Shown piece by piece: positions 29,872-32,916 of a stretch of DNA of 42,462 nucleotides; the stretch's first letter is position 1, and every line of letters begins with the position of its first letter. The notes beneath the pieces are model-generated. The model did not search any database and was not told the origin of the DNA. It saw nothing but the letters and a program-made list of their open reading frames with translations. Both the position numbers and the translations under genes were made by a program. The stretch is from Escherichia phage 26: sequence record NC_073320.1; one strand, written 5' to 3'.

Positions 29872-30288
29872 ATGAAACTTTCTGATTTTTATTTCGAAGA
29901 GAAAGCACTGGTAGGCAAGAAGATGCCTATTCTCCTGCCAAATGGTGAAGACTCAGGGGAATGGCTTAATGTTGTAAATCCGGATGCGGATGCCGCCGTT
30001 AAAGCGGGGCGTGCTTTCATTATCGCGTACCGCCGCGGGCTAGCGCGTTTTGAAGAACTGGAAAAAGCCGCCAAAGATTCCGGCGACTATACTGAATATA
30101 ACCTGGCGGTTAACGAACTGGCGGAAGACCTCAACCGGCAACTTGCGGCAGAAGTCGTAAACGGGTGGAGCTTTGATGAGCCTTTCTCTAAGGAAGAATT
30201 TAATAATCTCCTCTGCCAGTTCAAGGCATTAGGCACACAGGTTGCAGCGTTCCATAACGCCGAGCGCAAAGCATTACAGGAAAAGTAG
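29872..30288 (+). CDS. tail assembly chaperone (G-like)
   Basis: 138-aa ORF before tape measure; overlapping -1 frame ORF downstream. Confidence 0.6.
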   Translation: MKLSDFYFEEKALVGKKMPILLPNGEDSGEWLNVVNPDADAAVKAGRAFIIAYRRGLARFEELEKAAKDSGDYTEYNLAVNELAEDLNRQLAAEVVNGWSFDEPFSKEEFNNLLCQFKALGTQVAAFHNAERKALQEK

Positions 30289-30653
30289 ACGCGCTGTACA
30301 GGTTCGCCACCTATGAGTTTGTGGATAAGCATAAAATCAGAGAGTTTGATTCTATAGCTGACGGACACGAACAGGCGCTTATCGCGATGGGTGTAATCGA
30401 TAAGAAAAAACGTGCAGCGCGACGGGGTGGGCCAGAATGCCCGCCCCTTTTTATATCCACCTTTGAGACGTATTGCGACATTAAGTTTACGCGACACGTG
30501 CGCGAGGACGCTGTAGTATTGTTTGCAAGAGAATCCGTTACATGGCAAGACCTGAAAGCCTATCTCGGTGTTACGCAAAAGCAGCTTAGTCTGTTCGAGA
30601 TAGACATTATCATGGGCTTAGAAGCAATCTTTGAAGGTAGAAATCATGGCTGA
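30258..30653 (+). CDS. tail assembly chaperone -1 frameshift extension (GT-like)
   Basis: -1 frame open from 30258 to 30653, overlapping the last 10 codons of the chaperone; candidate slip site G GAA AAG / A AAA G at 30279-30285 just before the TAG stop. Confidence 0.45.
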   Translation, partial: RRAQSITGKVDALYRFATYEFVDKHKIREFDSIADGHEQALIAMGVIDKKKRAARRGGPECPPLFISTFETYCDIKFTRHVREDAVVLFARESVTWQDLKAYLGVTQKQLSLFEIDIIMGLEAIFEGRNHG

Positions 30654-32916
30654 TACCGCTAGTTTGATAGTACGAGTATCATCGACCGGCGTCGATAAAA
30701 CCACATCACAACTGAACGGGCTTACCAAAGCCGCAGGTGCTGCCGCGGCTGCCGTTGTCAGTCTGGAAACCGCAAAACAGGTGTTCAGTGCGCTGGTGGA
30801 CTCCCAGCGCAACTTCGATAAACTGAACTCCGGCCTCATCACAATGACCGGGAGTGCTGAGAACGCGGCAAAGGCTTTCAGTGTCCTGCAACAGTTCGCT
30901 AAAGAAACTCCATACGGCCTTAACCAGGCGGTAGAGGGTTTTACCAAGCTAGTAGCGCTCGGGCTTAACCCCAGCAAAGAGGCATTAATCTCCTACGGCA
31001 ACACCGCGGCGGCTATGGGTAAAGACCTTAATCAGATGATTGAGGCCGTGGCGGACGCCAGTACCTTTGAGTTTGAGCGACTGAAAGAGTTTGGCATCAA
31101 GTCGTCGCAGCAGGCGGATACGGTTTCGTTCACGTTCCGTGGCGTAACGACTACTGTTAAGAAGAACTCCGAAGAGATTCAGAAATACCTGTTAAACATC
31201 GGTAACACTGATTTCGCCGGGGCGATGGAGACGCGCTCGAAGACCTTAGACGGTCAGTTGTCGAGCCTGGCGGACTCTTTCGACGGCCTTGTACTTGCCG
31301 TAGCGCAGTCTGGTTTCGGTGATGCGGTAGGCGAACAAGCCGCGACAGCAGAAGATGCCATCACGGCACTCACCGACGCAATCGCGTCTAACGAGATAGC
31401 CGCTACGCTCCAGGATTGGGTGACGCTGTTCAATGAGTCGTTCAAGTTTATTTCTGATGCTTTGAACGACCTTGCGTATGACACAGAAGACAAATCGGCG
31501 GACATGTCGGATTCGCTTGGCACAATCCCTGACGCTATCCGTGAGTGGTTGCCGGATATCCAGCAGACTTTCCACGAGGTTATTGCATGGTTCCAGCGCA
31601 TCGACGACTATGCTGTGGCGTTAGGGCAGACACTTGCCGATGTGTTCGACCCAAGCAAAACGGCAGCGCTCACATTTAAAAACCTGACCGCGGAGGCCGA
31701 CGCCGCGTATGCCGCCAGCATAAAACGCGCTGAGGCGGAATCCCAGGCTATTACTGACAGGTCGAAACAGCGTAAAAAAGAAATTGAGGAACAGCGCAAA
31801 CAGTATGACGAGCGCAAGAAACAAGAAATTGACTTAGCCAGCCTTGTTAATAAAAAAAGCGGGACTGGCGGGGCGGGAGCTACCGACGATAAAGCTGCGA
31901 AAGCCGCCGCTAAGAAAGCAGAGCAATTGCGGAATCAGGCGCAAGATTACCTCGACACTTTGGCCCGTCAGAACAATGACGAGCTAAAAGCCATTGACGC
32001 ACAGGAACAGCAGAAACTGGCTAAAGCGAAAGAGTTCTACAGTCAGGGCGCGCTGTCGTTAAAAGAGTACGAACAGGCTAAAACTGCCATTGTTCTTGAG
32101 GCAGGGCAAAAACGACAAGATGAACTTGATAAACGCCAGAAAGAAGCCCAGGAGAAGCAGCAGAAAGGTGATGATTTCATGGCTCAGATTATGGGTCAGA
32201 ACGCTACTGAGCTTGAGCTTCTCGACATCCAGGAACAGCAGAAACTGGCTGTCGCCGATAAGTATCGAGAACAGGGGCTTATTAACGAGGAACAGTATCA
32301 GGCGGCGCTTAACGCCATCAATGAGCAGTATGCCACGAAACGTGCAGATGCTTTAGGTAGTTCTTTCGGTGACATGGCGGCTAATGCTAAAACGGCATTT
32401 GGCGAGGCGTCCACAGCGTATAAAGCGTTCGCTATTGCACAGGCCACTATCGCAACATACACGTCGGCTATCGAAGCATATAAGTCTACCGCAGCGATAC
32501 CGGTTGTCGGCCCATTCCTGGCGCCGGTTGCCGCGGCTACTGCCGTTGCCGCGGGGCTGGCTAATATAGCCAAAATCCGCTCGGCGCGTGAGCAGGGTGG
32601 CCAGTTATCGGCAGGCCAGATGTCTACCATCGCGGAACGTGGTAAGCCAGAAGTTATCATGCCTGCGGGCGCGTCACGCGTGCGCACCGCGCAGCAGATG
32701 AAAGAGATTATGGGACAAAATGGTGGCAACTCGGGCGGCGATAACGTCACCATAGTCAACAATACCACAGGGCGTGTGGATTCTGCCGTAACAGAACGTG
32801 ATGACGAAGGGCGTTTACGTATTATAATCAGTGAAACAGTAGCGTCGCAGTTACAGGATAACAACTCACCAATTTCTAAAGCTCGCCGCTCTACTCGCGG
32901 TCAGCCGGGGTATTAA
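30646..32916 (+). CDS. tape measure protein
   Basis: 756 aa, long coiled-coil with internal repeats, Ala/Gly-rich hydrophobic segment; start ATG 30646. Confidence 0.8.
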   Translation: MADTASLIVRVSSTGVDKTTSQLNGLTKAAGAAAAAVVSLETAKQVFSALVDSQRNFDKLNSGLITMTGSAENAAKAFSVLQQFAKETPYGLNQAVEGFTKLVALGLNPSKEALISYGNTAAAMGKDLNQMIEAVADASTFEFERLKEFGIKSSQQADTVSFTFRGVTTTVKKNSEEIQKYLLNIGNTDFAGAMETRSKTLDGQLSSLADSFDGLVLAVAQSGFGDAVGEQAATAEDAITALTDAIASNEIAATLQDWVTLFNESFKFISDALNDLAYDTEDKSADMSDSLGTIPDAIREWLPDIQQTFHEVIAWFQRIDDYAVALGQTLADVFDPSKTAALTFKNLTAEADAAYAASIKRAEAESQAITDRSKQRKKEIEEQRKQYDERKKQEIDLASLVNKKSGTGGAGATDDKAAKAAAKKAEQLRNQAQDYLDTLARQNNDELKAIDAQEQQKLAKAKEFYSQGALSLKEYEQAKTAIVLEAGQKRQDELDKRQKEAQEKQQKGDDFMAQIMGQNATELELLDIQEQQKLAVADKYREQGLINEEQYQAALNAINEQYATKRADALGSSFGDMAANAKTAFGEASTAYKAFAIAQATIATYTSAIEAYKSTAAIPVVGPFLAPVAAATAVAAGLANIAKIRSAREQGGQLSAGQMSTIAERGKPEVIMPAGASRVRTAQQMKEIMGQNGGNSGGDNVTIVNNTTGRVDSAVTERDDEGRLRIIISETVASQLQDNNSPISKARRSTRGQPGY

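What the first reader, a model, noticed from the sequence alone, without database searches (positions are those of the whole stretch)
31980..32330. Internal tandem repeat within the tape measure gene
Two ~35-aa segments (..AIDAQEQQKLAKAKEFYSQGALSLKEYEQAKTAI.. and ..LLDIQEQQKLAVADKYREQGLINEEQYQAALNAI..) share a 21-nt identical core (CAGGAACAGCAGAAACTGGCT) about 230 bp apart. Repeat expansion or contraction in tape measure genes changes tail length. Coordinates are approximate.
Basis: seen in the sequence. Interest (0 to 1): 0.2.

Follow-up and report, generated by a model that had tools for sequence, protein, structure and literature searches.

The report
Old two-copy repeat in tape measure
The tail tape measure gene of this Kagunavirus-type E. 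coli phage carries a real but ancient, fixed two-copy duplication of a 76-residue helical module, which is an ordinary feature of such genes rather than an actively expanding repeat.

Summary
CAGGAACAGCAGAAACTGGCT occurs exactly twice (32002-32022 and 32230-32250), 228 nt or 76 codons apart, inside the tape measure gene (30646-32916, 756 aa). A protein self dot-plot shows one outstanding diagonal: aa 423-494 against 499-570, score 123, against at most 53 in shuffles.

It is an old tandem duplication, not a young or unstable repeat. The two units share 36% of residues and 49% of bases. Copy 1 and copy 2 form separate subfamilies across phage lineages. Every complete Guernseyvirinae-type tape measure examined has exactly two copies. 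More distant relatives have one. None has three strong copies.

The 21-nt identity comes from a conserved heptapeptide (QEQQKLA) written in common codons. Close relatives differ at wobble positions.

The unit's core is SHOCT-like, a helix-Gly-helix motif that scores below the Pfam cut-off but gives 97.7% hhalign probability. Recombination junctions between tape measure modules fall at the unit border or at the first core.

The repeat probably adds ruler length, about 11 nm per unit. That figure is inferred, not shown. Interest is low.

The parts
30646..32916 (+). Tail length tape measure protein gene, 756 aa. The ATG is at 30646 (MADTASL...). The mechanical ORF begins at a TTG at 30631.
   Evidence: phrog_1538 'tail length tape measure protein' matches at E 4.5e-193 over aa 1-751. 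Pfam TMP_3 scores 38.7 bits on aa 51-218, just under its cut-off of 41. The protein matches P0001 'putative tape measure protein [Escherichia phage 26]' at 100% identity and coverage, same length. It is annotated as tape measure in dozens of Kagunavirus records.
31912..32139 (+). Repeat unit 1 (aa 423-498). The conserved part is aa 429-494, nt 31930-32127.
   Evidence: Self dot-plot diagonal at offset 76, score 123. The unit HMM scores 89.1 bits, E 8e-30.
32140..32367 (+). Repeat unit 2 (aa 499-574). The conserved part is aa 505-570, nt 32158-32355.
   Evidence: Same diagonal. The unit HMM scores 99.7 bits, E 4e-33. The two units share 36% of residues.
32002..32022 (+). 21-nt identical core, copy 1, encoding QEQQKLA (aa 453-459).
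   Evidence: Exact match. The codons are CAG GAA CAG CAG AAA CTG GCT.
32230..32250 (+). 21-nt identical core, copy 2, encoding QEQQKLA (aa 529-535).
   Evidence: Exact match. In 14 close relatives this core is identical to the first core at 17-21 of 21 bases. Most differences are third-position (GCT/GCG, AAA/AAG); one locus, L012, also carries a replacement.
31999..32094 (+). SHOCT-like helix-Gly-helix core of unit 1 (aa 452-483).
   Evidence: Pfam SHOCT PF09851 is the top sub-threshold hit: 19.2 bits, E 0.001, profile positions 2-26 of 28. hhalign aligns unit positions 24-55. The AF2 model breaks the helix at aa 467-471, QGALS.
32227..32322 (+). SHOCT-like helix-Gly-helix core of unit 2 (aa 528-559).
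   Evidence: Pfam SHOCT is the top sub-threshold hit: 15.9 bits, E 0.011. The AF2 model breaks the helix at aa 543-547, QGLIN, 76 residues after the first break.
29872..30653 (+). Tail assembly chaperone pair (G-like ORF 29872-30288, and a T-like extension in the -1 frame up to 30653) directly upstream. This is context that identifies the tape measure gene.
   Evidence: phrog_15027 'tail assembly chaperone' (259 positions) is matched by the first ORF at positions 1-138 and by the second at 152-259. The -1 frame is open from about 30279, read from the sequence.

Best explanation
The feature is an ancient, fixed, two-copy tandem duplication of a 76-residue alpha-helical module in the central to C-terminal part of the tape measure protein of a Kagunavirus-type siphophage. 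Each unit has three parts: an N-terminal helix (F/Y-L-x-x-L-x-x-x-N-x-x-E-L-x-x-I-D), a SHOCT-like helix-Gly-helix core (Q-E-x-x-K-L-x-K-x-x-E-F-x-x-x-G-L-I-S-x-x-x-Y-x-x-A-K-x-x-I), and a charged helical tail. The duplication happened before the two-copy lineages (Kagunavirus, Jerseyvirus, phiEap-2-like) diverged. The two copies have since evolved as distinct paralogous subfamilies under purifying selection. The exact 21-nt match is a by-product of a conserved heptapeptide written in frequent codons, possibly helped by an old short gene-conversion patch. Mechanistically the second unit adds ruler length to the protein. One 76-residue unit is about 11 nm at roughly 0.15 nm per residue of extended helix. 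The net gain over one-copy relatives is about 40 residues, or about 6 nm. The duplication and its age are shown here. The contribution to tail length, and any specific role of the SHOCT-like hairpin, are inferred.
For: Reality of the repeat. The score is 123 against a shuffled maximum of 53, and it is the only off-diagonal signal.

Age: the units share 36% of residues and 49% of bases, with 41% identity at third positions. TRF finds nothing.

Fixed copy number: the 120 best-scoring homologues are 753-759 aa. Golestan, SS3e, SZH-1 and phiEap-2 each have 2 units at a period of about 76 aa. Among the 77 viral loci, every complete Guernseyvirinae-type protein has 2 units. One-unit results come from loci cut short or from distant relatives of about 41% identity (704-729 aa) that lack about 40 residues where unit 2 sits. 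Of 1.84 billion representative proteins only 64 match the unit. The tape-measure-like ones among them carry 1 or 2 units.

Paralogous subfamilies: copy-1 units score 97.5 bits against the copy-1 profile and 45.6 against the copy-2 profile. Copy-2 units score 90.1 against their own profile and 41.2 against the other. One-copy units are intermediate, 19 to 18.

The 21-mer: relatives show 17-21 of 21 identical bases between the two cores, most differences at wobble positions.

SHOCT-like core: 31 of 78 units hit SHOCT, the next family 7; hhalign 97.7%, E 2.4e-12.

Helical structure with breaks only at the two QG turns.

Ruler ratio: the related Kagunavirus JSSK01 has a tail of 124 +/- 6 nm (PMC11641727). 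Set against the window's 756 aa, which assumes JSSK01's own tape measure is of similar length (not checked), this gives 0.164 nm per residue.

Gene length proportional to tail length: Belcaid et al. 2011.
Against: No experiment links this particular unit to tail length. The length difference between one-copy and two-copy relatives is about 40 residues, not 76, so the history is not a clean gain or loss of one unit.

Seven of seven identical codons in the core has P of about 0.004 given the local codon usage. In the first 26 codons of the unit, 12 of 13 identical residues use the same codon, where 6.3 are expected. Some homogenisation at DNA level therefore cannot be excluded.

The AF2 model rests on a single sequence (pLDDT 73.6, pTM 0.45). 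It folds the region back on itself, which would conflict with a fully extended ruler if it held inside the tail tube.

The SHOCT matches are below Pfam's gathering score. The SHOCT sequences used for hhalign were picked from hits of the unit profile itself.
Confidence: 0.85

Rival explanations
1. It is a young or unstable tandem repeat. The two 21-nt cores mediate unequal recombination, so the array expands and contracts and tunes tail length between strains.
For: A 21-nt exact direct repeat in frame, 228 nt apart, could in principle support rare unequal exchange. The unit number is 1 in distant relatives and 2 here. Tape measure length sets tail length in other phages.
Against: No length polymorphism of +/-76 aa appears among the 120 best-scoring homologues, all 753-759 aa. 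None appears among the 77 viral loci or the 64 representative clusters. The units are 49% identical in DNA. Copies 1 and 2 are separate subfamilies. Most relatives lack the exact 21-nt identity.
Confidence: 0.04
2. The two units are specific docking or folding modules rather than a mere spacer. The paired SHOCT-like hairpins would bind the G/GT assembly chaperones, or drive self-association of the tape measure trimer, or refold after ejection. The copy number of two would then be kept for that function. This is compatible with the best explanation.
For: A distinct motif is strongly conserved in each copy across lineages whose flanks differ at 20-50% identity. The SHOCT-like core is consistently recovered. 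AF2 gives its highest confidence (pLDDT 90-96) around the two turns. The copy number is invariant.
Against: There are no binding data. The function of SHOCT itself is unknown, and the one oligomerisation test published was negative (PMC3581485). No solved structure matches the unit by sequence. The fold search of a model spanning both units gave nothing significant. One-copy relatives evidently function.
Confidence: 0.3
3. The similarity is a chance or compositional effect of a Q/E/K/A-rich coiled-coil region, not a true duplication.
For: The region is rich in charged, helix-forming residues. Weaker diagonals, with scores of 45-48, exist in the neighbouring K/E/R-rich stretch at aa 356-407.
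Against: The score of 123 compares with a maximum of 53 in 100 composition-preserving shuffles, and z is 12.3. The register is conserved at 24 identical positions, including G, Y, N and D residues. The same two units are recovered in all lineages.
Confidence: 0.01
4. The 5' third of the two units was homogenised by a short gene-conversion patch in the K1G-like lineage. The repeat region also serves as a preferred site of homologous exchange between tape measure modules of co-infecting phages.
For: Twelve of 13 identical residues in the first 26 codons share the same codon, where 6.3 are expected. In the remainder it is 4 of 11. The 56-nt stretch is 71% identical. Module junctions map to nt ~32116-32146 in SZH-1 and Golestan, and to ~31996-32026 in L020 and L021.
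Against: The excess was found post hoc, and few independent junctions were mapped. QEQQKL-like motifs also occur in copy 1 of other lineages and in one-copy relatives, so the motif is ancestral. The wobble differences in relatives argue against ongoing conversion.
Confidence: 0.15

Closest known systems
Internal repeat units of siphophage tape measure proteins (for example the 11-residue units of Belcaid, Bergeron and Poisson 2011, PMC3271669; tandem repeats in TMPs surveyed in PMC13585406)
   Same: The repeat is an in-frame tandem duplication inside the ruler protein. Unit number differs between related phages, and protein length changes with it.
   Different: The period is 76 residues, not 11. 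There are only two copies, which are old and diverged (36% identity). No variation in copy number is seen among close relatives.
SHOCT domain (Pfam PF09851; Eberhardt et al. 2013, PMC3581485)
   Same: The unit core shares the pattern of about 28 residues, L-x-x-L-x-x-x-x-x-G-(L/I)-(L/I)-(S/T)-x-x-E-(Y/F)-x-x-x-K-x-x-(L/I). It is predicted as two helices separated by a Gly turn. SHOCT is the top Pfam hit for both copies and for 31 of 78 units. hhalign gives 97.7%.
   Different: All scores are below the Pfam gathering score: the two window copies reach 19.2 and 15.9 bits against 27, and the best E among the 78 units is 3e-5. The position is internal rather than C-terminal. The core is embedded in a longer 66-aa conserved unit. 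The SHOCT paper (PMC3581485) contains no occurrence of 'tape measure', and none of the three phage papers checked that cite SHOCT places it in a tape measure.
Lambda gpH-type tape measure with G/GT chaperones
   Same: The gene order is chaperone pair, then tape measure, then tail tip genes. The protein is a long helical ruler with a C-terminal hydrophobic, Gly/Ala-rich segment. The ratio is about 0.16 nm of tail per residue.
   Different: No significant match to lambda-family models was obtained: Pfam gives only sub-threshold TMP_3, and NCBIfam gives no hit. gpH itself was not compared here.

Membership tests
Tail length tape measure protein | Sequence homology to curated tape measure families | tested here: met
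   phrog_1538 matches at E 4.5e-193 over the full length. Homologues are annotated as tape measure in many phage records. Pfam TMP_3 reaches only 38.7 bits against a cut-off of 41. NCBIfam gives no hit.
Tail length tape measure protein | Gene lies directly after a G/GT-type chaperone pair and before the distal tail and tail tip genes | tested here: met
   Upstream ORFs 29872-30288 and 30321-30653 match phrog_15027, tail assembly chaperone. Downstream ORFs match phrog_396 and phrog_329 (minor tail) and phrog_469 (tail protein).
Tail length tape measure protein | Protein length proportional to tail length, about 0.15 nm per residue | tested here: inconclusive
   The tail of the related Kagunavirus JSSK01 measures 124 +/- 6 nm. 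Set against 756 aa this gives 0.164 nm per residue, which is consistent. However, the measure includes the tail tip, comes from another isolate, and JSSK01's own tape measure length was not checked.
Tail length tape measure protein | Deletions or duplications in the gene change tail length | not testable with these tools
   This needs phage genetics and electron microscopy.
Protein tandem repeat | Two or more adjacent copies with similarity beyond chance | tested here: met
   Offset 76, score 123 against a shuffled maximum of 53. The units abut at aa 498/499.
Variable-number (expanding and contracting) repeat | Copy number differs among closely related genomes, and copies are near-identical in DNA | tested here: not met
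   The 120 best-scoring homologues are 753-759 aa. Two copies are present in all Guernseyvirinae-type loci. DNA identity between the units is 49%. TRF finds nothing.
SHOCT domain (PF09851) | Score at or above Pfam's gathering threshold of 27 bits | tested here: not met
   The window copies score 19.2 and 15.9 bits. The best of the 78 units has E 3e-5.
SHOCT domain (PF09851) | Profile-level similarity and a helix-Gly-helix architecture | tested here: met
   hhalign gives 97.7% probability, E 2.4e-12, over 32 columns, with a selection caveat. The AF2 helix breaks fall exactly at the QG of each unit.
SHOCT domain (PF09851) | Predominantly C-terminal location in the host protein | tested here: not met
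   The units lie at aa 452-483 and 528-559 of 756.
11-residue tape measure units (Belcaid et al. 2011) | Variable numbers of an 11-aa repeat | tested here: not met
   The only significant period is 76 aa.

The most novel reading that the evidence does not exclude
The 66-aa unit may define a so far undescribed module of siphophage tape measure proteins, present in 1-2 copies in a narrow set of about 60 clusters at 50% identity, whose core is a true homologue of the enigmatic SHOCT domain. In that case tape measures would offer a tractable setting in which to learn what SHOCT does, for example hairpin formation, self-association or chaperone docking. The unit borders would act as preferred crossover points for swapping N- and C-terminal tape measure modules.
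Probability: 0.35. Interest if true: 0.35.

Novelty: new member of a known kind. Interest (0 to 1): 0.15.

Why it matters
It matters little on its own. Internal duplications are a known way in which tape measure genes, and hence tails, change length, and this one is old and fixed. It is useful as an annotation point: the units and their SHOCT-like core mark the boundary between exchangeable N- and C-terminal tape measure modules in Guernseyvirinae. The exact 228-nt in-frame period also gives a clean design for a one-unit deletion or triplication to test the ruler rule in a phage group used for therapy and biocontrol.

Tried and rejected
- Tandem Repeats Finder on the gene gave no array, because the copies are too diverged in DNA.
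- A blastp self-comparison printed no off-diagonal alignment. I replaced it with a direct diagonal scan.
- NCBIfam gave no hit for the tape measure protein.
- A PDB sequence search with the unit profile gave only chance-level hits, E >= 0.23.
- A Foldseek search of the PDB with the AF2 model gave only generic long-helix bundles, E >= 0.49, which is uninformative.
- I looked for a third copy in the window protein. The best candidate, aa 350-386, scores -0.4 bits and was rejected.
- Multi-stretch hits in the representative search (P0139, P0162) are unrelated repetitive proteins. P0150, P0155 and P0160 are bona fide SHOCT-repeat proteins, not tape measures.
- I considered a nucleotide-level function for the 21-mer, such as a site or an RNA element. 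I rejected it because close relatives vary at its wobble positions.
- The tail length published for phage Golestan, 28 nm, was not used. It is incompatible with a 779-aa tape measure and with the 124 nm reported for JSSK01.

Full report
**Observation.** The 21-mer CAGGAACAGCAGAAACTGGCT occurs exactly twice in the 42.5-kb window, at 32002-32022 and 32230-32250 on the + strand. There are no further matches at up to three mismatches, and none in 100 shuffles. The spacing is 228 nt, or 76 codons. The repeat finder extends the DNA match to 56 nt at 71% identity. Tandem Repeats Finder reports nothing.

At protein level I scanned every diagonal of the 756-aa protein. One diagonal stands out: offset 76, aa 423-494 against 499-570, BLOSUM62 score 123. 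The best diagonal in 100 shuffled sequences averages 41.4 +/- 4.8 and reaches at most 53. A 66-aa local alignment gives z = 12.3. The two units abut head to tail, so calling it a tandem repeat is fair for the protein.

**What the gene is.** The protein matches PHROG 1538 ('tail length tape measure protein') over its full length at E 4.5e-193. The two ORFs upstream (29872-30288 and 30321-30653) together cover PHROG 15027, a 259-position tail assembly chaperone. The ORFs downstream match minor tail and tail tip families. Pfam gives only TMP_3, just under its cut-off (38.7 against 41 bits), and NCBIfam gives nothing. The protein matches the 'putative tape measure protein' of Escherichia phage 26 at 100% identity and coverage. 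The window is about 90% identical in DNA to Kagunavirus genomes of the Guernseyvirinae.

**Age and copy number.**
- The two units share 36% of residues and 49% of bases, with 41% at third codon positions, which is saturation.
- The 120 best-scoring of 3,723 homologues are all 753-759 aa.
- Tape measures of Golestan (779 aa), SS3e/Jerseyvirus (777), SZH-1 (769) and phiEap-2 (744) each contain exactly two units at a period of about 76 residues.
- I scanned 77 viral-contig loci with an iterated unit profile. Every complete Guernseyvirinae-type protein has two units.
- A group of environmental relatives at about 41% identity (L039, L048, L049, L051-L053, L055; 704-729 aa) has one unit. These lack about 40 residues where unit 2 sits.
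- A profile search of 1.84 billion representative proteins found only 64 matches. The tape-measure-like ones have one or two units. One 906-aa protein has two units plus a weak third.
- Copy-1 and copy-2 units form separate subfamilies across lineages: 97.5 against 45.6 bits for copy 1, and 90.1 against 41.2 for copy 2. One-copy units are intermediate.

The duplication therefore predates the divergence of the two-copy lineages and has been fixed since. I found no sign of recent expansion or contraction.

**The 21-nt identity.** The core encodes QEQQKLA in both units, using CAG, GAA, AAA and CTG. In 14 close relatives the two cores are identical at 17-21 of 21 positions. Most differences are at wobble positions (GCT/GCG, AAA/AAG). 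Other lineages carry different residues in one copy or the other. There is therefore no constraint at nucleotide level.

Given the local codon usage, seven of seven identical codons has a probability of about 0.004. In the first 26 codons of the unit, 12 of 13 identical residues share their codon, against 6.3 expected. In the rest of the unit it is 4 of 11. This post hoc excess leaves room for an old short conversion patch, but it is not needed to explain the observation.

**Anatomy of the unit.** An alignment of 78 non-redundant units gives the consensus ...A..FL......N..EL..ID.QE..KL.KL.EF...GLIS.Q.Y..AKT.I...A...R. Scanned one at a time, both window units have the SHOCT domain (PF09851) as their best Pfam match: 19.2 bits at E 0.001, and 15.9 bits at E 0.011. 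Both are below the gathering score of 27.

Thirty-one of the 78 units hit SHOCT at E <= 0.1, with a best E of 3e-5. The next family is hit by seven units. hhalign of the unit alignment against 13 bona fide SHOCT repeats gives 97.7% probability and E 2.4e-12 over 32 columns. The caveat is that those SHOCT proteins surfaced as hits of the unit profile.

A single-sequence AlphaFold2 model of aa 404-610 is entirely helical. Its only breaks are at QGALS (aa 467-471) and QGLIN (aa 543-547), 76 residues apart, and confidence is highest around them. Overall pLDDT is 73.6 and pTM 0.45. Neither a PDB sequence search nor a fold search gave a meaningful match. The SHOCT paper contains no occurrence of 'tape measure', and none of the three phage papers checked places SHOCT in a tape measure.

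**Mechanism.** It is established knowledge that tape measure length sets tail length, shown by copying or removing parts of the gene in model phages (abstract of Belcaid et al. 2011; see also PMC13585406). The related Kagunavirus JSSK01 has a tail of 124 +/- 6 nm. Set against the window's 756 aa this gives 0.164 nm per residue, assuming JSSK01's own tape measure is of similar length, which I did not check. This is consistent with a mostly extended helical ruler.

I infer that unit 2 contributes roughly 6-11 nm of tail relative to one-copy relatives. It is open whether the conserved SHOCT-like hairpins also dock the G/GT chaperones or mediate self-association. I give that about 0.3 as a non-exclusive addition.

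**Mosaicism seen on the way.** Sliding-window identity shows that these tape measure genes are modular. SZH-1 is about 20% identical to the window protein up to about aa 480 and about 100% identical afterwards. L020 and L021 show the reverse pattern. In DNA the switch falls at nt ~32116-32146, the border between unit 1 and unit 2, for SZH-1 and Golestan. It falls at ~31996-32026, the first core, for L020 and L021. The number of junctions mapped is small, so this remains a lead.

**Verdict.** This is a real, statistically solid, but old and fixed two-copy repeat in a tape measure gene. It is a new example of a known kind of feature. There is no evidence of dynamic expansion or contraction, and the 21-nt identity is not a sign of recency. 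Interest is low. The SHOCT-like core and the junction pattern are the only mildly new points.

Noticed in passing
window 29872-30653, especially 30279-30288: The tail assembly chaperone pair looks like a lambda G/GT-type programmed -1 frameshift. 'GGAAAAG' lies at 30279-30285, immediately before the TAG stop at 30286-30288 (lambda uses GGGAAAG). The -1 frame is open from there to 30653. PHROG 15027 (259 positions) spans both ORFs.
   Followed up: partly
window ~31996-32146; loci L001, L003, L020, L021: Tape measure genes of Guernseyvirinae are mosaic. DNA identity to SZH-1 and Golestan jumps from about 60% to over 90% at the border of unit 1 and unit 2. Identity to L020 and L021 drops from about 85% to about 65% at the first 21-nt core. 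The repeat region may be a preferred crossover point between N- and C-terminal modules.
   Followed up: partly
window 32186-32201 and 32705-32720: A 16-nt direct repeat at 88% identity encodes (A/E)IMGQN in 'FMAQIMGQN' (aa 511-519) and 'QMKEIMGQN' (aa 684-692). It also appears as a weak extra hit of the unit profile in several relatives. It is probably chance.
   Followed up: no
window 30631-30653: The mechanical ORF starts at a TTG at 30631, but homologues start at MADTASL, the ATG at 30646. The tape measure start therefore overlaps the end of the T-frame chaperone ORF by 8 nt.
   Followed up: partly
literature on locus L001 (phage Golestan, NC_042084): The Golestan paper reports a 28 +/- 0.9 nm tail (PMC7203180). 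That is incompatible with its 779-aa tape measure and with the 124 nm measured for the related JSSK01. It is probably a scale error in that paper.
   Followed up: no
window 32470-32590 (aa ~610-648): A hydrophobic, Gly/Ala-rich segment, AIPVVGPFLAPVAAATAVAAGLANIAKIRSARE, is the most conserved part of the C-terminal module. It is shared even with one-copy relatives at 41% identity. It resembles the membrane-active C-terminal segments described for other tape measures, which is my own knowledge and was not tested here.
   Followed up: no
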